Shown: one piece after another, positions 15,428 through 54,707 of the stretch
Layout: each line of letters begins with the position of its first letter
Position numbering within the stretch: the stretch's first letter is position 1
Assembly: GCA_033720855.1 (NCBI GenBank)
Contig: JAWWBR010000002.1
Coordinates: forward strand, 972-64,971
DNA: 64,000 nt
Reading direction: 5' to 3'
Source: Alphaproteobacteria bacterium
GTDB taxonomy: Bacteria; Pseudomonadota; Alphaproteobacteria; SMXQ01
The notes under the pieces: generated by a model
Told to the model about the DNA's origin: nothing
Databases searched by the model: none
The model's input: only the letters and a program-made list of their open reading frames with translations
Position numbers and translations under genes: made by a program

Positions 15428-15871
15428 CTAGACCATGAATTCGCGCCGCGTCAGGGGGAGGGCGAAGGGCTGACTTGAGTTCGCAAACCTTACCAGATGT
15501 GCCGGACAGCGGCGGCAGTCGCTGGCACCGAACCCTGCGATCGGCACCTCCGCCCCGGAAACTGCGGAAAAACGCGAGAACAAGCCGCATTCATCTCCTC
15601 CCGGCGCAACGATCACTGCAGCAATCCGTCCCGCCCGCGTTAGGCGATCGACATGCCAGCGCAAGGCTTTTTCTCGCCTCAGATGCCGCCCGACCCGGCC
15701 GGCGATGCCGCCCGGCCCATTGGCGCTGCCGCAATAGAGATAGAGCCCAGGGGCGAGCACACGGCCGCGGCGCCCGATACGCACCGCCACCGCGCTCTCG
15801 GAGTCGATGAGGAGCCCGTACGCGCCGCGGTCCGAGGGCAGGGTGATGTCAGTGTCAGCGTCCGTGATCAT
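15428..15871 (-). CDS. DUF123 domain protein (GIY-YIG/URI nuclease-like superfamily).
   Basis: ORF 15428..15970 on the - strand. The ATG at 15869-15871 is the likely start; the longer ORF begins with GTG. Motifs YGLLIDS...RIGRRG..LAPGLYLYCGSA..G..GRVGRHLRR and C-terminal Cys residues are present. Confidence 0.6.
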   Translation of the reverse strand: MITDADTDITLPSDRGAYGLLIDSESAVAVRIGRRGRVLAPGLYLYCGSANGPGGIAGRVGRHLRREKALRWHVDRLTRAGRIAAVIVAPGGDECGLFSRFSAVSGAEVPIAGFGASDCRRCPAHLVRFANSSQPFALPLTRREFMV

Positions 15872-16021
15872 GGCCCCGTCGCCGGCCCCCGCCCACGACG
15901 AGGCGAGCGGCTTGCGCCAAACTGACGTATGGTTATTGTTGCGCCAGGCGTCATGCGCGTACCCTAACACCGTTAACCGCAGCCGGCACCGTTCGGCAAT
16001 TGATGACAGAGGGCCTTATCA

Positions 16022-18499
16022 TTGAACACCGATCGCTTTGCAACTGTTGCGTATGGTCTGGCCCTGCTCGGAATCCTGCTGTTGCCATCGGCCGGTGCGG
16101 CCCTGGCGCAGGAGGACGTGCTTAACCCCGAGGTTCGCTACGATGTTCTTCGCCATCAGTTGAGCATGGCGATTCGCGCCAAGAAGCCTCGCGAAACCAT
16201 CGACATCATCGCCAAACTGCGAAAATCGCCTCTCGGCATCAGTGGCGAGATCTTGTTCTATGAAGGTCACGCCTATTATCAGCTGAAGGAGTGGACGAAT
16301 GCCTACCGCTCCCTCGTTGCCTACCTCAACACGGTTGGCCGCAAAGGCCGAAACTACAAGGTGGCGATCGGATTGTTTGTCGAGGCCGAGCGCGCGATCA
16401 AGTCCCGAAAACGCGAATCGGAAGCATCGGCGCGGGCCGAGCGCAGCTGGTCCTTGGCGGCGTCGGCGTACGACCGTCTCAAGCCGCAACGCGACGCCTG
16501 GCGGGAAAAGGTCGTGACCTTCGGCGGGCCCCGCAACGATTCCGCCTGGGTCATGGCGCGCAGGGCCGATGGGGGATTTCTGGTGGGCGGAACCTTCGAA
16601 CAAAAGGCGGACAAGAAGACACGGCAAAAAGCCAGCCGCAGCATGGGGCTGATGGCCTTGACCAAAAGCGGGCGCATGGCCTGGAACCGGATTCCCCTCG
16701 GCCCCGCAGAAGACGGCGCCATCAAGTCGCTGACGGCGCTGCCCGACGACGGCTTTCTGATCGGCGGCATTCACCGGGGCTTCCAGATCGCCGCCCGCAT
16801 GGATCGCAACGCCGTTCCCATCCGCAATCACGACGGCAAGCCCTGGGTCAGCCCCCTGGCAAAAGCCAAAGACGGCTCGATCGCGGAGGTCGTAAGGCTT
16901 GCCAACGGCGACGTGCTGGCGATCGGATCGGAGCGCGTCACCAAAGACGGCAAGAGTCCCCGGCTACCCTTCGTGGTTCGGCTGTCCAAAGACGGAAAGC
17001 CTTTGGGCAAGACCGTCTTTACCGGAGATGCGGCGCGGTTCTGGCACGACATTACCGCCGCCGTGAGGATGGAAGGCGGCGACATCCTCGCCGTCGGCAC
17101 GACCCGCCCGCAAGCCGCCTGGGACACCCGGTCGGGCCTAGGCTATCTGTTGCGCGTCACCGAAGATGCCAAGATGGTTTGGGCGCGGAGGGTGCCGGCC
17201 CGCGGTCAAGGCGAGATCCAATTTTCCGGCGTGGCTCGCGCCAAAGACGGCGGCCTTTTGGCCGTGGGACAAGAGGGCAAGCGCCTGCTGTTGTTCAAGG
17301 CTTCCGCTGCAGGCGAAGAGGAATGGCGCAAGACGCTCGCCTATCGCAGCCCCATGCCCGCCGGGGCAGGCGATCTTTGTGCGGTCTCCGACCTGATCCC
17401 GCAGCTGAAGAAATCCAGCAAGTTCCTCGACCGCCCGCTGCCGACGGCGGACCGGATCGCGGCGGTGCGCGGCCTGGCCTGTCCCCAAGGCGCGCCACTC
17501 GCATCGGCGACCGGCATAATCCGTCACCAGGATGGTTTTCTCGTCCTCGGCCTTCAGGCGCCGGGCCCAGGGGAAAAGGTCGATATCCGGCTAATCGCTT
17601 TGGACCACGCGGGTACTATCCAGTGGGACAAAGTCTATGGCCATGACGGTTTCGATATTGCCACCAGCGCCCTGCCCACCGAAGACGGCGGCGCCATCAT
17701 TGCCGGGGCGACCGATTCCATCGGCGCCGGCGGGCGTGACATCCTGATCTTCAAGGTCGACAAGGATGGCAACTTTGCGAACTGGTCGGCCCTCGGCCCA
17801 CCGGCCGGGCCGAAGCCGGCAACCGCCGCCAAGTCGCCCGCCGAAACGGCCGTCCCATCATCACCGAAACCCAAACCCGGGGCCGCCGCAACGCCGGAGG
17901 AGGGTAAGCCGAAGGATACAGACGCCAAGCAGGCCGCGCCATTGGCACCCGAGGCGGAGGCCGAGGCTGTTGCAACTCCGGAGGAGGGTAAGCCGGAGGA
18001 TACAGACGCCAAGCAGGCCGCGCCATCGGCGCCCGAGGCGGAGGCCGAGGCTGTTGCAACTCCGGAGGAGGGTAAGCCAGAGGATACAGACGCCAAGCAG
18101 GCTGGTTCCGGCGCGCCGCCTCGGCCCGAACCGGAAGCTCGAGCCGAGCCGGAAGCGGAAACGGAGGACGATGGCGCCCCCAAACCGGACGCGCCGGAGG
18201 CATCGGCTTCGCCCAAAGCGGTGATCGAGGACCCGGAGGCGACACCGGCCGCTGAAGACCCCGGCACCCCGAAAAAGGCGGATGCGGGCGCCGGGGACGA
18301 GTCGCTGGGGACGCCGAAGACGCAAGGGCAGGGCGCCTCTCCGCCCGGGGCTTCGCAAAACAGCGACGAGCCGCCCGCAACCTCGTTCCGCTCGATCTTC
18401 GGCTCCATCTTCGGCGGATCGGAGGAAGAGAAATCAGCCCCCACGGATCAGTCCGGCGACGGAGACAAGACGCCGCCGGCTTCCGGCGAGACGGAATAA
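16022..18499 (+). CDS. Large secreted or periplasmic protein. Domain order is signal peptide, an N-terminal helical (TPR-like) region, about seven beta-propeller-like DGG-[FL]-L-x-GG repeats, and an acidic Pro/Ala/Glu-rich C-terminal tail with 28-aa tandem repeats.
   Basis: ORF 16022..18499, 825 aa. The signal peptide cleaves at ALA-QE. Repeated motifs include ADGGFLVGG, DDGFLIGG, GGDILAVG, DGGLLAVG and DGGAIIAG. Confidence 0.75.
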   Translation: MNTDRFATVAYGLALLGILLLPSAGAALAQEDVLNPEVRYDVLRHQLSMAIRAKKPRETIDIIAKLRKSPLGISGEILFYEGHAYYQLKEWTNAYRSLVAYLNTVGRKGRNYKVAIGLFVEAERAIKSRKRESEASARAERSWSLAASAYDRLKPQRDAWREKVVTFGGPRNDSAWVMARRADGGFLVGGTFEQKADKKTRQKASRSMGLMALTKSGRMAWNRIPLGPAEDGAIKSLTALPDDGFLIGGIHRGFQIAARMDRNAVPIRNHDGKPWVSPLAKAKDGSIAEVVRLANGDVLAIGSERVTKDGKSPRLPFVVRLSKDGKPLGKTVFTGDAARFWHDITAAVRMEGGDILAVGTTRPQAAWDTRSGLGYLLRVTEDAKMVWARRVPARGQGEIQFSGVARAKDGGLLAVGQEGKRLLLFKASAAGEEEWRKTLAYRSPMPAGAGDLCAVSDLIPQLKKSSKFLDRPLPTADRIAAVRGLACPQGAPLASATGIIRHQDGFLVLGLQAPGPGEKVDIRLIALDHAGTIQWDKVYGHDGFDIATSALPTEDGGAIIAGATDSIGAGGRDILIFKVDKDGNFANWSALGPPAGPKPATAAKSPAETAVPSSPKPKPGAAATPEEGKPKDTDAKQAAPLAPEAEAEAVATPEEGKPEDTDAKQAAPSAPEAEAEAVATPEEGKPEDTDAKQAGSGAPPRPEPEARAEPEAETEDDGAPKPDAPEASASPKAVIEDPEATPAAEDPGTPKKADAGAGDESLGTPKTQGQGASPPGASQNSDEPPATSFRSIFGSIFGGSEEEKSAPTDQSGDGDKTPPASGETE
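17888..18112 (+). repeat. In-frame 84-bp tandem repeat, about 2.6 copies. It encodes ATPEEGKP(K/E)DTDAKQAAP(L/S)APEAEAEAV.
   Basis: Copies at 17888-17971 and 17972-18055 differ at about 4 positions. A third, partial copy runs 18056 to about 18112. Confidence 0.85.
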
Positions 18500-18533: not shown

Positions 18534-19907
18534 CTATTTACCGATTCGCGGCTTGATGACCGCGATCAGCGAGGGCGCACCCTCGATCCCGAAATCGTTG
18601 TCGTTGAGCAGCGCGATCGTGCCATCACCCAATAGCGCCATGCCTTCCAGCTTCTCAGGTATGTCCCCATAGGCATCGCCGTCGAACGCAAGCGCCTTTG
18701 ACACTGGCCGGATGGCGGACCTGGATACAAGGATCTGCTCGAGGCTCGGCCGTGTCGACTCCCGGTCCCAGCGGGATCCGAGGATATTCGTCGCGGTGCC
18801 GAGGTCGACCGCGAAAAGTTTCGTGGACTTGCGAATTCGTTCCAGGACGAGAAGCCGATCGCCCCCTATGGCCGTCATCGCGCTGATCTTGACCGCGCTT
18901 TGTTTGTCCGAATCATCGCGGCGAAAGCTTTCCGGTCGCTCCAGCACGTAAACGAATTCACCCACTGCCTTTTGCGCGGTTCTGTCGAACTTATACAAAC
19001 GGATATTGCGGCTGCGCTTCGCGTCTTTTGCCCGGGGATTCGCGAGCGGGCCTTGGGTCGCGAAATAGAGGAACCGCTCGTCAGGGCTGAGGGCGAGGGA
19101 TTCCAGGCCGCGGTTCCTCCGGCGCTTGGCGAGCATTCGGGGCAACCCTCCGGAAACCTGGTACCTTTCGGTCCGGATTCCAGACTCCATGCCAAAGGGC
19201 ACGAGTCGCAAAGTGACCCGGCCCGACGGCGATACCCGCAACAGGGACGGCGCGCTCTCATCGGCGATCCAATAGCTCCCGTCGCCCAGCCTCACCATGG
19301 CCTCCGGGTCCACCGCGGCCATATCCCGCTTGAGCGCTTTTCCCTCGGCGTCGAAAGCAGGACGGGAGTCCCCCTTTCCGGGGGGAAGGAAAAGTCCGCT
19401 CAGCGGCTTGCCGTCCCGGTCTTTCAATACGACGCTGTCAAGCACCCGGAACCGTCCGTCGGCATCGAGCCGGAGCGTATAAATGGATGGGGCATAGGCG
19501 GGCAAGGGATGGATGAGGGCCTTTTTGAGGCCCGCGCAAAGGGCATCGCGCGTGAGGGTCGTCAGTTTTGCCCCTTTCTTGCAACCAAATAGGGGGCCGG
19601 CATCGGTGATCGTCTGCAAAACCATGGGCGGCATGGTGGGATGGCGAAAGGCACCGGAACCCAGGCCGGCTCGGAAGCGCAGGCTGATCCCATTTGGAAA
19701 GCGGGCAACCCCTAAATCCAGCCTGGGATCGGAGCTGGAATAAATTTTTGGCGATGAACCAGGCGCATCGGCCGCCCCACTCGCCGTCCCAGAACAAAAG
19801 AGCATTGCGGCGGTCAACAGGGCGCAAAAACCCCTGCCGTTCCTAAAAAACCGCCCCGCGCGCTCCCGGCCCACCCCCAGGGGCGGTATTTTCTTCTGCT
19901 CATCCAT
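18534..19907 (-). CDS. Secreted phytase-like esterase family protein (PF13449-like).
   Basis: ORF 18534..20024 on the - strand. The start is likely MDEQKK... (codon 19905-19907) with an AAGGGGGTG RBS. A signal peptide is present. The C-terminal LEGMALLGDGTIALLNDNDFG is characteristic of the family. Confidence 0.65.
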   Translation of the reverse strand: MDEQKKIPPLGVGRERAGRFFRNGRGFCALLTAAMLFCSGTASGAADAPGSSPKIYSSSDPRLDLGVARFPNGISLRFRAGLGSGAFRHPTMPPMVLQTITDAGPLFGCKKGAKLTTLTRDALCAGLKKALIHPLPAYAPSIYTLRLDADGRFRVLDSVVLKDRDGKPLSGLFLPPGKGDSRPAFDAEGKALKRDMAAVDPEAMVRLGDGSYWIADESAPSLLRVSPSGRVTLRLVPFGMESGIRTERYQVSGGLPRMLAKRRRNRGLESLALSPDERFLYFATQGPLANPRAKDAKRSRNIRLYKFDRTAQKAVGEFVYVLERPESFRRDDSDKQSAVKISAMTAIGGDRLLVLERIRKSTKLFAVDLGTATNILGSRWDRESTRPSLEQILVSRSAIRPVSKALAFDGDAYGDIPEKLEGMALLGDGTIALLNDNDFGIEGAPSLIAVIKPRIGK

Positions 19908-20107
19908 GGGGCACCCCCTTGAAGAACGCGCGCTCATTTCACGGTGAATTCCAAAAAACGGCCGATTTGAGAGACCTAAAAAAACGTTAGAAAACATGAG
20001 GATATCGGTGTGCTTGTTAAGCAAATCATAACCAAATTCCGATCATTTTAAAGGTATGCATCACGAATGAAACAAGTCCTGTTCCACCTAAGATAAAGGA
20101 AATTGTC

Positions 20108-21052
20108 ATGGGTAATGGAAATGCTGCCTTGACTTCCGCCGTGGCCCGCCGCATGCGGCGGGCGAAATACAGCGCCGTCACCGCGGTCCTAGGCGTTTCG
20201 GTTCTTGCCTTTTCGGCCTTCGGCGCCGCCGCCGAGACCAAGATCGTCTTCGGCGCCTATTCGTCGGACAAACCTTCGGCGATGATCGCGCAAGTGCACC
20301 CGACCCTTGATGCCATCGCCAAAAAGATGATGGAGATGTATGGCGAAAAGGTGTCGTTCCGCATGCAGATCGTGCGCGGCTACAAGAAGGGTGTCGATCA
20401 CCTGGTTGCGAAGAAATTCGATATCATGCGCCTGGGCCCCGCGTCCTACGTCATGGCCAAGAAACGCGCGCCGCAAATCACCATTTTGGCGATGGAGAAC
20501 AAGCACGGCAAGAAAACCTTCAACGGGATCATCGCCGTCCACAAGGACAGCACGCTGACAAGCCTCGACCAATTGCGTGGCCGGACCTTCGCATTCGGTT
20601 CCAAGCGTTCGACCTTGGGACGCTTCTTCGCCCAGCTGACCTTGACCGAGGCCGGCGTCCTTGCGAAGGACCTTGCGCGTTTCGAGTATCTCGGACGCCA
20701 CGACAAGGTGGGCCGAGCCGTTGGCGCCAAACTCTTCGAGGCCGGCGCCCTCGAGGGAACCACCTTTGCGAAGCTCGTGCGCAAGGGTGTTCCCATCCGC
20801 GCCCTGGCCAAATTTTCCAACGCCACGCGGCCCTGGATCGTCAGGGAAGGGATGAACCCCGGGCTTGCAGACAAGATTCGGAAGGCCATGCTTGCCGTGA
20901 CCGACAAGGCGGCCACCCGCGCGCTGCGGTTCGACGGCTTCCTGCCGGGCGACGATTCGGACTACGCGCCTACGCGGATGGCAATCCAGGAGAATCATCT
21001 ATTTTTCGAAGGTTTCACGGGCTTCAAAACCCAGCAGCAAAGCCGCCGCTGA
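20108..21052 (+). CDS. PhnD/SsuA/transferrin-family periplasmic substrate-binding protein.
   Basis: ORF 20108..21052. A signal peptide and the conserved PhnD-like core are present. An AAGGAAA RBS lies upstream. Confidence 0.8.
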   Translation: MGNGNAALTSAVARRMRRAKYSAVTAVLGVSVLAFSAFGAAAETKIVFGAYSSDKPSAMIAQVHPTLDAIAKKMMEMYGEKVSFRMQIVRGYKKGVDHLVAKKFDIMRLGPASYVMAKKRAPQITILAMENKHGKKTFNGIIAVHKDSTLTSLDQLRGRTFAFGSKRSTLGRFFAQLTLTEAGVLAKDLARFEYLGRHDKVGRAVGAKLFEAGALEGTTFAKLVRKGVPIRALAKFSNATRPWIVREGMNPGLADKIRKAMLAVTDKAATRALRFDGFLPGDDSDYAPTRMAIQENHLFFEGFTGFKTQQQSRR

Positions 21053-21084: not shown

Positions 21085-22563
21085 ATGGTGAGGGTGCGAG
21101 TGCCGCACTTTAGACTAAGTTCGCAAGTGCTTATTTCCCTGGTCCTGTTGGCGGTCATCACCGCCTTCGGGACCGGGCTTGCGATTCAATGGTTCGAAAG
21201 ATCCTACCTGGTGTCCCAGATCACCGAACGCGCCAATGACAAACTGCGCATCCTTGTCGCGTCGTCGCTGGACGATCTGATCAGTGAGGATGTCCCCCGC
21301 CTGGAGACGACCGTCCAACAGCTGGCGGAGAAAGACCCGAAGCTGGTCGGCGTCACCATCCTCAACGAAGAAAAGGCCGAACTCTTCGCGTGGCGGAAAA
21401 AGCCCTTTCCGCCGAGGGAAGACGTCTACGTTTTTTCGAATAAGGTTGATTTTCACGGCCAGCATTTCGGCACCATTACGATCCTTTGGAACAAAAGGCA
21501 GAGCGAACAGGCCTTTATCCTTCACTCCTACCGCATCGCGGTGTTCGTCAGCTCCACCTGTTTCGTGATCGGATTGCTGGCCTTCTTCGTCATTCGCATC
21601 CTCGTGGTCGAGCCCGTCCATACCATCGCCAATCGGGCGCTCAATTTCCGGCGACACATCTTTGACGACGGCAAAAAAGTGGGTTCCTACGCCTCTTCGG
21701 AGCTGAAGCGTCTGGATGACGCTGTGAACTCGTTGGGCGAACTGCTTCAGTCGCAGGAAATGAGGGAAACGGAACTCAAGACCGCCAAGGAACTTGCCGA
21801 GACCGCAAACCGCGCGAAATCGAATTTCCTTGCGAATATGAGCCATGAACTGCGTACCCCTTTGAACGCCATCTTGGGCTTCTCCCAAATCATGGAATCC
21901 CAAATATTCGGCCCCCTCGGCGACGCAAAGTACCTGGCCTACGTGAAGGACATCAGGGTCTCGGGCGACCATCTCTTGAAGATCATCACCGAAATCCTGG
22001 ACGTATCGAAAATCGAAGCCGGCAAGCTCAGCCTGGACATCGGCCGCGTGCACCTGCCCAAGACCATCAAGTATGCGCTTGGGCTTCTGAGTTCGGATAT
22101 CGAGAACGCCAAATTGGAGTTTATGGTCGACGTCCCCGATTCGGTGCCGGAGCTTCAAGCCGACGAGCTGCGGATGCGTCAGATCATCATCAATCTCGTG
22201 TCCAACGCGCTCAAATTCACGCCGGAGGGGGGAACCGTCTCTCTGAACTTGAAGTGGCGGCAGTCCGAGGGGGTGGAGATTTGCGTGAAGGACACCGGCG
22301 TCGGGATCACCGAAGATAAAATCCCCCGTATCCTGTTGCCGTTCGAGCAGATCCACGACGCCATGACGGAAGCGAACCAGGGGGCGGGACTTGGGTTGCC
22401 CCTCGCCAAGGCGCTGACCGAGCTTCAGGGCGGAAGGCTGACCCTGACAAGCACATTAGGCGAGGGGACCGAAGTCAGAATCTTCTTCCCGAGCGAACTT
22501 CTTCTTACCTCGGACGTGGATCTCCCAAGCGACGGGGAAGGGCCGGCGAAGAGGATTGCTTAG
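21085..22563 (+). CDS. Membrane sensor histidine kinase. Domain order is TM, periplasmic loop of about 130 aa, TM, HisKA, HATPase_c. There is no receiver domain.
   Basis: ORF 21085..22563. H-box [17 protein letters not shown]-box and G1/G2 boxes are present. It sits immediately downstream of the substrate-binding protein gene. Confidence 0.85.
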
Positions 22564-52568: not shown

Positions 52569-54707
52569 GTGATCATGACGGTCAATCCGCAGGACCTTCT
52601 TGAATCGGCGCTTCACGATGCCCGTGCAGAGCGGTTTACGGCTGCGGAGAAGACGCTGCGCCTGCTGCTGAGCGAACCCCTGAACCAACAGGATAGGGCC
52701 GCTGTCCAAGGGCTGCTTGGTGCGGTCTGTGCCTCCTTGGGCGATCATCCCGCCGCGGTTGAAGAGCTCGAGAGCGCCGCCGCCGCGCTCCCCGATGATG
52801 CATCGATCGCCGCCAACCTATCGGTCTCCCTGAGGGAGGTCGGCCGCCTGGATGACGCCATAGCCGCCGGCAAGAAGGCGACCGCGTTGCATCCTCAATT
52901 TGCCGAAGCCCATTGCAATCTGGGGGTTGCGCTGAGGACCAAAGGCGATTTGGCGGGCGCCGCGGTCAGTTACCGGCGCGCCTTGCAGGTCCGCCCCGAT
53001 TTTGCCGAGGCCCACAACAATCTGGGAATCGTCCTTAGGGACATGGGTGAGCTCGAGGACGCCATCACCAGCTACCGCAGGGCGCTCGAGCTTCGCCCCG
53101 ACTATGCCGAGGCCCACAACAACCTCGGCGTCGCGCTGAAGGACAAGGGCGCGTGTGACGACGCCGTCGCCGCCTACCGAAGGGCGCTCGAGCTTCGCCC
53201 CGACTATGCCGAGGCCCACAACAACCTCGGCGTCGCCCTCAAGGACAAGGGCGCGTGTGACGACGCCGTCGCCGCCTACCAAAGGGCGCTTGAGCTTCGC
53301 CCCGGCTATGCCGAGGCCCACAACAACCTCGGCGTCGCCTTGCTGGATAGGGGCGATGCCGAAGACGCCGCCGCGAGCTTCCAACGGGCGCTCGAGCTTC
53401 GCCCCGGATACGCCGAGGCCCACAGCAATCTCGGCATCGCCTTCAAGGACCTCGGCCGTCTGGAAGACGCCATCGCAAGCTATTTGGATGCGTTGCGCGC
53501 GAAGCCCGATCTTGCCGAGGCCCATGACAACCTGTGCGAATTGTACGAAAGAACCAACAAGGTGCCCGAATTCGAAAAGGCTCTCGCCAATGCACAACGG
53601 GTCCTGAAGGAAGACTCGCCGAAGATCCTGCTGCGACGGGCCCAGCTCGCGAGCCGAAAGGAGCGCTTCGAAGAGGCGATTTCCGATCTGGAGAAAATCA
53701 GAGCCGAGGATTTCAACCCGCAGTTCAGGAGTATCTACCTCGTCCTGCTGGGCAAAACCTACGATCGGCTTCAGCGCTTCGACGACGCCTTCAGCGCGTT
53801 TTGCGCGGTCAACGAGCTGGCGGAAGCCTCTCCGCAGTATCAACGCTTCGATCCCGACAAGTTCCTCGACGCCGTCCTATCCAGGAGAGACTCCTGGAGA
53901 TCGGGCACGGCGCCGGCCTGGACGGTCCCAGAGGCCGGCCCTGCCGAGCCGTCACTGACTTTTCTGGTGGGCTTCCCGCGGTCGGGAACGACACTGCTGG
54001 ATACCATCCTCCGCGGCCATCCGGAGATCAGCGTCGTCGAGGAGATGCCGATGGTCGACACCATGAGAGCGGCCTTCGGGCGGCCCGAAACCGTCGACTC
54101 CCTCAACCGGTTGTCCGAAGGCGACATCGAGCAACTGCGGGCGACCTATGCCCAGGAGCTCGATCGGCAGATCCCCCCCTCGCAACGGCGCAAGGTCGTG
54201 GTCGACAAATATCCACTCAACATCACCAGCGTCGGCCTCATCCACCGGGTGTTCCCGAAAGCCAAATACATCTTTATCGAGCGCCATCCCTGCGACTGCG
54301 TTCTCAGCTGCTTCATCCAGAACTTCGATGCCAACGACGCCATGGCGAATTTCCTGAGCCTCGAGCGGACGGCCACGCTCTACGATGCGGTGATGGGGCT
54401 GTGGCAGGCCTACAGGAGCCGCCTCGACCTCGAGGTTCACGAATTGCGATACGAGGCGCTGGTTCACGACCTCGAGGACGCCTGCCGGCCGCTGATCGAT
54501 TTTCTCGGCCTCGAGTGGAACGACAACGTCCTCAACTATCGGGAAACGGCCTTGAACCGGGAGACCATCAAGACGCCCAGCTACAACCAGGTCATCAAGC
54601 CGCTCTATTCCCAAGCCATCGGGCGGTGGAAGAATTACGAGGACAAGTTCGCGCCCGTTCTGCCGATCCTGAAGCCCTGGATCGAGGCCTTCGGTTACGA
54701 GGACTGA
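52569..54707 (+). CDS. TPR-repeat protein with a C-terminal sulfotransferase domain.
   Basis: ORF 52569..54707. About 10 TPR units (AEAHNNLG...) are present. The sulfotransferase PAPS-binding motif GFPRSGTTLL and the 3'-PB motif region are present. Confidence 0.85.
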   Translation: MIMTVNPQDLLESALHDARAERFTAAEKTLRLLLSEPLNQQDRAAVQGLLGAVCASLGDHPAAVEELESAAAALPDDASIAANLSVSLREVGRLDDAIAAGKKATALHPQFAEAHCNLGVALRTKGDLAGAAVSYRRALQVRPDFAEAHNNLGIVLRDMGELEDAITSYRRALELRPDYAEAHNNLGVALKDKGACDDAVAAYRRALELRPDYAEAHNNLGVALKDKGACDDAVAAYQRALELRPGYAEAHNNLGVALLDRGDAEDAAASFQRALELRPGYAEAHSNLGIAFKDLGRLEDAIASYLDALRAKPDLAEAHDNLCELYERTNKVPEFEKALANAQRVLKEDSPKILLRRAQLASRKERFEEAISDLEKIRAEDFNPQFRSIYLVLLGKTYDRLQRFDDAFSAFCAVNELAEASPQYQRFDPDKFLDAVLSRRDSWRSGTAPAWTVPEAGPAEPSLTFLVGFPRSGTTLLDTILRGHPEISVVEEMPMVDTMRAAFGRPETVDSLNRLSEGDIEQLRATYAQELDRQIPPSQRRKVVVDKYPLNITSVGLIHRVFPKAKYIFIERHPCDCVLSCFIQNFDANDAMANFLSLERTATLYDAVMGLWQAYRSRLDLEVHELRYEALVHDLEDACRPLIDFLGLEWNDNVLNYRETALNRETIKTPSYNQVIKPLYSQAIGRWKNYEDKFAPVLPILKPWIEAFGYED
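53073..53276 (+). repeat. Near-identical 102-bp tandem duplication encoding two consecutive TPR units (YRRALELRPDYAEAHNNLGVALKDKGACDDAVAA). Flanking units are progressively more diverged.
   Basis: Copies at 53073-53174 and 53175-53276 differ at about 4 nt. Confidence 0.8.

What the first reader, a model, noticed from the sequence alone, without database searches (positions are those of the whole stretch)
16022..18499. Large secreted beta-propeller-like repeat protein with a repetitive acidic tail encoded by 84-bp tandem DNA repeats
The protein has seven or more degenerate D-G-G-[FL]-L-x-(G/A)-G-containing blades after an N-terminal helical region. It also has a 240-aa Pro/Ala/Glu/Lys-rich C-terminus. 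Part of that tail is encoded by two nearly perfect 84-bp repeats plus a partial third copy at 17888-18112. Perfect in-frame tandem repeats are slippage-prone. They could give length-variable surface or periplasmic tethers. The terminal ...SFRSIFGSIFGG motif is unusual. I recognise no family for the whole protein.
Basis: seen in the sequence. Interest (0 to 1): 0.5.

Follow-up and report, generated by a model that had tools for sequence, protein, structure and literature searches.

The report
Exported propeller protein with repeat-variable tail
This gene encodes an exported protein of unknown function, found only in a few uncultured Alphaproteobacteria: a helical cap and a seven-bladed beta-propeller of a known repeat class, then a floppy spacer that changes length by tandem duplication and ends in a short conserved sticky helix.

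Summary
Window 16022-18499 (+) is one 825-aa ORF. It has a Sec-type signal peptide, a helical N-domain (about aa 30-164) and a seven-bladed beta-propeller (165-592). A disordered Pro/Ala/Glu/Lys tail of about 233 aa follows. An in-frame 84-bp x 2.6 tandem array lies at 17888-18102 and is the only near-perfect tandem repeat in the 64 kb.

The full architecture occurs in about six 50%-identity clusters, all from uncultured Alphaproteobacteria/Rhodospirillales.

Across the family the 566-aa core has almost no indels. The tail varies from 52 to 203 aa and from net -26 to +47 charge, with different in-frame repeats (84, 39/78 or 15 bp) in different lineages. Near-identical sister-lineage proteins differ by whole repeat units.

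A C-terminal amphipathic motif (TSFxxIFGSIFGG and variants) is conserved throughout.

My best reading is an envelope binding module on a spacer of loosely constrained length that ends in a docking or anchoring helix. Function is unproven. Interest is modest.

The parts
16008..16013 (+). Shine-Dalgarno-like AGAGGG, 8 nt upstream of the TTG start
   Evidence: Read in the sequence. This is an inference.
16022..18499 (+). CDS of 825 aa, stop codon included. Appears monocistronic here: the upstream DUF123 gene is divergent and the downstream phytase-like gene is convergent.
   Evidence: The protein is identical to P0015, NCBI MDX1482930.1, 'MAG: hypothetical protein, Alphaproteobacteria bacterium'.
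16022..16108 (+). Predicted Sec signal peptide, aa 1-29, with cleavage A-L-A|Q. It has no lipobox Cys.
   Evidence: Sequence. A29 and Q30 are nearly invariant in the family. pLDDT is below 50. No signal-peptide predictor was available, so this was read by eye.
16109..16513 (+). Helical N-domain, aa 30-164. It has four shorter helices in a TPR-like arrangement, then a helix of about 52 residues (112-163). Net charge is +10.
   Evidence: AF2 pLDDT is about 90-96. Sub-threshold TPR_2/TPR_6 hits fall at the same place (aa ~76-98) in 4 of 6 relatives.
16514..17797 (+). Seven-bladed beta-propeller, aa 165-592, of the delta-60/DUF5122/CylK class. The first strand (165-167) probably closes blade 7.
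17354..17485 (+). Helical insert between blades 5 and 6, aa ~445-488. It holds the only two cysteines, C453 and C487, which probably form a disulfide.
   Evidence: AF2 helices 447-454, 458-468 and 476-486. Both Cys are invariant in 16 sequences. The disulfide is an inference.
17798..18376 (+). Intrinsically disordered Pro/Ala/Glu/Lys spacer, aa 593-785, net charge -23.
   Evidence: pLDDT is 30-40. The region cannot be aligned across the family and its length is 52-203 aa.
17888..18102 (+). In-frame 84-bp tandem array, 2.6 copies. The 28-aa unit is ATPEEGKP[KE]DTDAKQAAP[LS]APEAEAEAV.
   Evidence: TRF score 395, 96% match. Unit comparison is and repeat spacing.
18377..18418 (+). Conserved C-terminal amphipathic motif ATSFRSIFGSIFGG, aa 786-799. 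At DNA level it is partly a 12-bp x 2.5 repeat (18386-18415).
   Evidence: S788, I792, G794, F797 and G798 are invariant. Variants are kept in distant relatives. AF2 gives a short helix at 789-796 with low pLDDT. Helical hydrophobic moment is 0.35-0.60.
18419..18496 (+). Charged, polar terminal extension, aa 800-825. It has no hydrophobic segment.

Best explanation
The gene encodes a Sec-exported cell-envelope protein, most likely periplasmic, built from three functional parts.

1. **A rigid, basic head.** A TPR-like helical domain sits next to a seven-bladed propeller of the delta-60/DUF5122/CylK class, which carries a disulfide-stapled helical insert. I take the head to be a ligand- or partner-binding module, not a CylK-type enzyme.
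2. **A disordered Pro/Ala-rich charged spacer.** Its presence and composition are selected. Its sequence, charge and length are not. It grows and shrinks by in-frame tandem duplication and slippage, and the 84-bp array is the latest such event in this lineage.
3. **A short conserved amphipathic helix at the far end.** Its pattern is phi-x-x-phi-phi-x-x-phi-F-G-G. It acts as the docking or anchoring tip, binding a partner protein's hydrophobic groove (favoured) or a membrane surface.

The protein would then work as a tethered binding module whose reach is set by the spacer.

**Shown:** the domain anatomy, the propeller class, the conservation pattern and the repeat-driven length change among close relatives.
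**Inferred:** export, the disulfide, the binding role, the tip's role and the cellular location.
For: **Anatomy.**
- Two independent AF2 models agree, with core pLDDT about 90 and pTM 0.59 and 0.70.

**Propeller class.**
- The profile search hits 35,590 cluster representatives through repeated blade matches.
- Sampled hits pass PF17164 and TIGR02608 and match CylK by sequence at E 3e-21.

**Conservation pattern.**
- The core is 566-567 aa in all 12 close relatives, with 76% mean column identity.
- The tail is 52-203 aa with net charge -26 to +47, yet always 15-27% Pro.
- The C-terminal motif is kept even in relatives only 30-37% identical: TLGSIFSIL, SLGDLLDQLF, DLFDLLGGIF, DLFDLIEGLF, LRELLNSLFGG.

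**Repeat dynamics.**
- Proteins 95-100% identical to P0002 differ by 13-aa and 26-aa tail units and nowhere else in length, apart from different start-codon calls.
- Tail repeat periods are 84, 39/78 and 15 bp in different lineages, all multiples of 3.

**Export.**
- A signal-peptide-like N-terminus and an invariant Cys pair are present.
Against: - There is no experimental or annotation evidence of function. Every source calls it hypothetical.
- AF2 does not dock the tip onto the head; pLDDT is below 40 in both models. Self-docking is therefore unsupported and the partner is unknown.
- The tip and its flanks are acidic or neutral, which argues against binding to anionic bacterial membranes.
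- The exact peptide SIFGSIFGG also occurs in unrelated proteins such as DnaJ G/F regions. It is not a specific signal by itself.
- Gene neighbourhood gives no partner. A MASE8 histidine kinase follows the gene only in one clade and not here.
- Copy number is the same in the only two assemblies of this species.
- Short-read assembly could have collapsed or mis-set the copy number of a 215-bp array.
- Many invariant polar residues in the propeller (for example H342, H541, E304, D309) leave room for catalysis.
Confidence: 0.45

Rival explanations
1. The head is an enzyme. As in CylK or virginiamycin B lyase, a cleft between the N-domain and the top face of the propeller would be an active site. 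The tail would only localise the enzyme.
For: - The closest solved structure is an enzyme whose active site lies between its N-domain and the propeller's top face (PMC8916777, read).
- The propeller has many invariant His, Asp, Glu and Arg residues.
- Both domains are modelled with high confidence and pTM reaches 0.70, which is compatible with a fixed interface.
Against: - CylK's catalytic Arg105 comes from a Ca-binding beta-roll domain. That domain is absent here and a helical domain takes its place.
- No biosynthetic or halogenase genes lie nearby.
- Most invariant residues sit at blade-periodic positions (DGG, W, R/K-x-D-x-x-G) and look structural. This is my reading.
- Most delta-60/DUF5122 proteins are multi-domain surface proteins with Ig/PKD modules.
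Confidence: 0.2
2. The 84-bp array is a contingency locus: programmed, rapid length variation of a surface-exposed tail for antigenic or phage-receptor variation.
For: - The repeat is near-perfect and in frame.
- Unit-number differences exist among near-identical sister-lineage proteins.
- Tail expansions have arisen repeatedly and independently.
Against: - There are only 2.6 copies of a long 84-bp unit, so the slippage rate should be low.
- Copy number is identical in both available assemblies.
- Changes alter length, not on/off state.
- The pattern fits relaxed constraint on a spacer equally well.
- Surface exposure is not shown.
Confidence: 0.1
3. The protein is a BamB-like or PQQ-type propeller lipoprotein of the outer-membrane assembly machinery. 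The first reader raised this possibility.
For: It is an exported propeller with a helical, TPR-like partner domain, which loosely recalls BamB with BamD. This is a resemblance only.
Against: - There is no lipobox and no Cys in the signal peptide.
- It has seven blades, not eight.
- No PQQ or BamB Pfam or NCBIfam hit appears at E <= 1.
Confidence: 0.02
4. The repeat, or its copy number, is an assembly artefact of a short-read metagenome assembly.
For: - The source is a metagenome-assembled genome.
- The array (215 bp) is longer than typical short reads, so the copy number could be collapsed.
Against: - Two assemblies that differ by one residue elsewhere (G603A) give the same 825-aa product.
- The units are not identical (4 of 84 differences), which helps the assembler place them.
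- The reading frame and the downstream conserved motif are intact.
Confidence: 0.08

Closest known systems
delta-60 repeat / DUF5122 beta-propeller proteins (TIGR02608, PF17164; related to SBBP propellers such as Leptospira LipL53-type lipoproteins)
   Same: - The blade signature matches: ...G..D.a..v..t.DGG.i.aG.t.s.G.GG.D.l..K.d..G...W...
- The profile of this family hits tens of thousands of such proteins, typically in 7 or 13-14 blade-sized stretches.
- Sampled hits pass the curated models.
- They too are exported or surface proteins of unknown function.
   Different: - The window protein and its full-length relatives do not reach either curated model, even at E <= 1.
- They have a unique helical N-domain, a Cys-stapled helical insert between blades 5 and 6, and the spacer-plus-tip C-terminus. 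Typical family members carry Ig/PKD modules instead.
CylK (PDB 7RON/7ROO/7FH6), Friedel-Crafts alkylating enzyme of cylindrocyclophane biosynthesis
   Same: - It has seven blades, and its propeller's top face is capped by an N-terminal domain.
   Different: - CylK's N-domain is a Ca-binding beta-roll that supplies the catalytic Arg105 (PMC8916777). Here the N-domain is helical.
- CylK is a cytoplasmic cyanobacterial natural-product enzyme encoded with a CylC halogenase. This protein has a signal peptide, lies in a housekeeping neighbourhood (recG-mfd-dsbA) and carries a long disordered tail.
SSB-type 'folded core + variable disordered linker + conserved hydrophobic/acidic tip' design. This is an analogy in logic, not homology, and is drawn from my own knowledge.
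   Same: - A conserved folded domain is followed by a Pro/Gly/Ala-rich linker of highly variable length and sequence.
- The linker ends in a short conserved amphipathic tip, which in SSB is the partner-docking element.
   Different: - The fold, the cellular compartment (cytoplasm versus envelope) and the motif sequence are all unrelated.
- No partner is known here.
C-terminal amphipathic-helix membrane anchors: periplasmic PBP5/PBP6, and the cytoplasmic MinD tail ...GFLKRLFGG. This comes from my own knowledge and was used as a lead only.
   Same: - A short terminal amphipathic helix.
- The ending (L/I)FGG resembles the MinD tail.
   Different: - Known anchors have basic polar faces that bind anionic lipids.
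- This tip is neutral or acidic, has acidic flanks, and is followed by 10-28 further charged residues.

Membership tests
BamB / PQQ-like propeller lipoprotein | Lipoprotein signal peptide with a lipobox Cys at +1 | tested here: not met
   The only Cys residues are at 453 and 487. The signal peptide ends A-L-A|Q.
BamB / PQQ-like propeller lipoprotein | Eight-bladed propeller that matches the PQQ/PQQ_2 models | tested here: not met
   Both AF2 models show seven blades. No Pfam or NCBIfam hit appears at E <= 1.
delta-60 repeat / DUF5122 beta-propeller | Passes the curated HMM (PF17164 or TIGR02608) | tested here: not met
   No hit at E <= 1 for the window protein. None for the full-length relatives P0031, P0033 and P0035 at E <= 0.01.
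delta-60 repeat / DUF5122 beta-propeller | Blade-level homology to bona fide members | tested here: met
   The family profile hits P0041, P0058, P0072, P0077 and P0096 at E 1e-55 to 1e-93 in 6-14 blade-sized stretches. These pass PF17164. P0041, P0077 and P0096 also pass TIGR02608.
delta-60 repeat / DUF5122 beta-propeller | Seven-bladed fold of the CylK type | tested here: met
   [not shown]
CylK/BrtB alkyl-halide alkylating enzymes | N-terminal Ca-binding beta-roll domain that supplies Arg105 | tested here: not met
   The N-domain is all-helical. The requirement is taken from PMC8916777.
CylK/BrtB alkyl-halide alkylating enzymes | Equivalents of Tyr473 and Asp440 on the propeller's top face | not tested
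   No residue-level structural alignment was available.
CylK/BrtB alkyl-halide alkylating enzymes | Co-localised CylC halogenase or biosynthetic genes | tested here: not met
   The neighbours are recG, mfd, a DsbA-like gene, DUF123, a phytase-like gene, a PhnD-like binding protein and a histidine kinase.
TPR repeat domain (N-terminal region) | Match to the TPR HMMs | tested here: inconclusive
   Only sub-threshold hits (E 0.09-0.7) were found. They fall at the same position in 4 of 6 relatives. AF2 shows helical hairpins.
Known C-terminal sorting signals (PEP-CTERM, GlyGly-CTERM, LPXTG-type) | A motif followed by a transmembrane helix and a basic cluster at the extreme C-terminus | tested here: not met
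   After the motif come 10-28 polar or charged residues with no hydrophobic stretch. No NCBIfam sorting-domain hit was found.

The most novel reading that the evidence does not exclude
The variable Pro/Ala-rich spacer plus the conserved phi-phi-x-x-phi-phi-x-x-phi-F-G-G tip may be an undescribed envelope 'tether-and-tip' device. The tip would dock to a specific partner: an envelope protein, or the basic head of a neighbouring copy, which would give head-to-tail assemblies. Repeat-driven spacer length would then set the reach of the propeller across the periplasm.
Probability: 0.2. Interest if true: 0.55.

Novelty: new variant of a known kind. Interest (0 to 1): 0.3.

Why it matters
If the reading is right, this is a clean natural example of an exported bacterial protein with two contrasting parts. 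The folded binding head is under tight constraint. A disordered spacer evolves freely by in-frame tandem duplication, yet a short terminal docking helix is preserved.

The practical gains are modest:
- It gives a structural class (delta-60/CylK-type propeller) to a 'hypothetical protein' family that no curated model captures.
- It flags a conserved C-terminal motif worth testing.
- It shows that the CylK propeller class extends into non-enzymatic-looking envelope proteins of Alphaproteobacteria.

It does not bear on any major open question.

Tried and rejected
1. **Curated family scans.** Pfam and NCBIfam scans of the whole protein gave nothing at E <= 1. A PDB sequence search with the core profile gave nothing at E <= 10.
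2. **Search with the C-terminal motif alone.** A 64-column profile of the C-terminus then found nothing at E <= 10. It did not even recover the family, because the motif is too short for a database of 5.8 billion sequences. The result is uninformative and cost one capped search.
3. **Metagenome scan with a back-translated SIFGSIFGG pattern.** Only L018 (the P0010 contig) belongs to the family. The rest are chance frames or unrelated proteins: DnaJ G/F regions, transporter N-termini and giant repeat proteins. I found no sign that the 9-mer is a general C-terminal signal.
4. **Self-docking of the tip.** In two AF2 models, including a short-tailed homolog, the tip forms a helix but with pLDDT below 40. 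Self-docking is not supported.
5. **Functional link to the neighbouring histidine kinase.** The MASE8 kinase follows the gene only in the P0009/P0010/P0012 clade. The window's kinase shares only the catalytic core with it (39% identity). In L010 no kinase follows at all. I read this as shared backbone synteny, not an operon.
6. **Acidic tail pairing with the basic head as a conserved electrostatic device.** Rejected, because tail charge ranges from -26 to +47 in the family.
7. **AlphaFold-database fold search (afdb50).** The library was not available.
8. **Literature.** Searches for DUF5122 and for delta-60 repeat found nothing functional.
Full report
**Check of the observation.**
- Window 16022-18499 (+) is a single 825-aa ORF with a TTG start. 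An AGAGGG Shine-Dalgarno-like site lies 8 nt upstream.
- Tandem Repeats Finder reports an 84-bp array at 17888-18102: 2.6 copies, 96% match, no indels, score 395.
- The array is in frame. Units 1 and 2 differ at 4 of 84 nt, and unit 2 differs from the partial third unit at 1 of 47 nt.
- It is the only near-perfect tandem repeat in the 64-kb window.
- Seven DGG[FL]LxGG-like segments lie at aa 183, 242, 295, 352, 409, 503 and 555.
- The tail after residue 592 is A/P/E/K-rich, with net charge -23 over aa 593-785.
Two small corrections apply: the array ends at 18102, and the tail is about 233 aa.

**Structure.**
- AlphaFold2 was run on a 12-sequence family alignment. It gives a confident helical domain (H25-163, pLDDT about 90-96). 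It also gives seven four-stranded blades (aa 165-579), and the strand at 165-167 is placed to close the last blade.
- A three-helix insert (447-486) lies between blades 5 and 6. The tail is disordered (pLDDT 30-40) and contains one short helix at 789-796.
- A second model, of the short-tailed homolog P0012 with 16 sequences, reproduces all of this at mean pLDDT 80 and pTM 0.70.
- The protein's only two cysteines, C453 and C487, flank the insert. They are invariant in all 16 relatives.
- The N-terminus looks like a Sec signal (basic residue, hydrophobic core, A-L-A|Q). It has no lipobox. I read this by eye and did not run a predictor.
- Together these features point to an exported, disulfide-bonded protein. 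That conclusion is an inference.

**Which propeller.**
- No Pfam or NCBIfam model hits at E <= 1, and a PDB sequence search is empty.
- A profile of the 566-aa core was searched against 1.84 billion cluster representatives. It gave 35,590 hits at E <= 1e-3. Nearly all are proteins matched in 7, 13-14 or more blade-sized stretches by the last-blade region of the profile.
- Sampled hits pass PF17164 (DUF5122 beta-propeller) and TIGR02608 (delta-60 repeat). They also touch the SBBP lipoprotein model, and they match CylK by sequence at E 3e-21.
- The blades therefore belong to the delta-60/DUF5122/CylK class, in a form too diverged for the curated models.
- The protein is not BamB/PQQ-like: it has seven blades, no lipobox and no model hit.
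- It is not a CylK-type enzyme. CylK needs a Ca-binding beta-roll N-domain that supplies Arg105 (PMC8916777). Here the N-domain is helical, with only sub-threshold but positionally consistent TPR matches.

**The family.**
- Only 12 close relatives exist among 5.8 billion clusters (53-64% identity, 692-825 aa, all 'hypothetical').
- Only about six 50%-identity clusters match the profile end to end: P0004, P0031, P0033, P0035 and P0042, plus the 380-aa P0032, which matches only profile positions 2-340. P0102 matches without the helical domain.
- Genome hits are all metagenome-assembled Alphaproteobacteria or Rhodospirillales.
- The window protein is identical to NCBI MDX1482930.1 from an 'Alphaproteobacteria bacterium' MAG.

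**Conservation pattern.** This is the most informative result.
- The core is 566-567 aa in every close relative, so it has almost no indels, and its mean column identity is 76%.
- The tail cannot be aligned. It is 52-203 aa long, its net charge runs from -26 to +47, and it is always 15-27% Pro and rich in Ala and charged residues.
- At its end, every member keeps an amphipathic motif. In close relatives it is TS[FI]xxIFGSIFGG. In relatives only 30-37% identical it is TLGSIFSIL, SLGDLLDQLFQG, DLFDLLGGIFSG, DLFDLIEGLFGG or LRELLNSLFGGG.
- The hydrophobic residues follow an i, i+1, i+4, i+5, i+8, i+9 pattern, and the helical moment is 0.35-0.60.
- After the motif come 10-28 polar or charged residues with no transmembrane segment. 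This rules out the known CTERM-type sorting signals.

**Repeat dynamics.**
- In the cluster of P0002, full-length proteins 95-100% identical to P0002 come from different MAGs. Apart from different start-codon calls, they differ in length only by in-frame tail units: minus one 13-aa TPPEKQAGDGETK unit in two of them, and plus 26 aa in one.
- TRF on the homologous genes finds tail arrays with periods of 84 bp (this window), 39/78 bp (L001) and 15 bp (L004, L010). All are multiples of three and unrelated in sequence.
- At this exact locus the two available assemblies differ by one residue elsewhere and both have 2.6 copies. Variation here is plausible but not shown.
- Short-read collapse of a 215-bp array cannot be excluded.

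**Context.**
- The gene sits in a conserved backbone of recG, sdh5, mfd and a dsbA-like gene, then in some relatives a response regulator and an Hpt gene, then DUF123, then the target.
- In this window it is flanked by a divergent DUF123 gene and a convergent phytase-like gene, so it appears monocistronic.
- A MASE8 histidine kinase follows the gene in one clade but not here and not in L010.
- I take the synteny as inheritance, not as functional coupling.

**Mechanism.** What follows is my preferred reading; the numbers are my own estimates, not measurements.
- I propose an exported head that binds something. On this reading it is tethered through a spacer whose length is only loosely constrained. 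The spacer would end in a tip helix that docks to a partner protein or to a membrane surface.
- I favour protein docking, because the tip and its flanks are neutral to acidic.
- I cannot name the partner. AF2 does not dock the tip on its own head. A metagenome scan shows that the 9-mer also occurs in unrelated proteins, so it is not a recognisable general signal.
- An enzymatic head remains a real alternative, at roughly 0.2. My confidence in the anatomy is about 0.85 and in the mechanism about 0.45.

**Verdict.** This is a real, correctly described feature. The protein belongs to a small, undescribed, lineage-restricted architecture built on a known propeller class, so I rate it a new variant of a known kind. 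Interest is modest at 0.3. The conserved spacer-plus-tip C-terminus is the part most worth an experiment.

Noticed in passing
window 52992-53476, inside ORF 52569-54707 (+): There is a second tandem array: 102 bp x 4.8, 82% match. The 34-aa units read RPDYAEAHNNLGVALKDKG...AVAAYQRALEL, which is an ordinary run of TPR repeats in a 712-aa protein.
   Followed up: no
window 18386-18415: The conserved C-terminal motif is itself a 12-bp x 2.5 DNA repeat (TTCGGCTCCATC, SIFG-SIFG). The same 12-bp periodicity appears in the homologs L001, L002, L003 and L008. The motif may have arisen by a micro-duplication that then became fixed.
   Followed up: partly
L029, L043 and L073 (metagenome loci): The exact peptide SIFGSIFGG occurs in apparently DnaJ-like Gly/Phe-rich regions (..FESIFGSIFGGRRSR..). 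It also occurs near the start of ~450-aa ORFs in L049, L059 and L080 that I did not identify. The 9-mer is not specific to this family.
   Followed up: partly
window 18534-20024 (-), 20108-21052 (+), 21085-22563 (+): Downstream lie a phytase-like (PF13449) exported protein, a PhnD-type phosphonate-binding protein and a HisKA/HATPase histidine kinase. In the P0009, P0010 and P0012 clade a MASE8 kinase follows the target directly instead. This block looks like a lineage-specific insertion.
   Followed up: partly
P0002 cluster; L001: Gene callers chose different starts for near-identical orthologs. Some models begin at MRHDVL/VRHDVL and so lose the signal peptide. Public annotations of this family are inconsistent about export.
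   Followed up: no
window 15428-15970 (-): A DUF123 (GIY-YIG-like) gene is the divergent upstream neighbour. It is kept next to the target in L008, L009 and L010 but absent in L005-L007.
   Followed up: no
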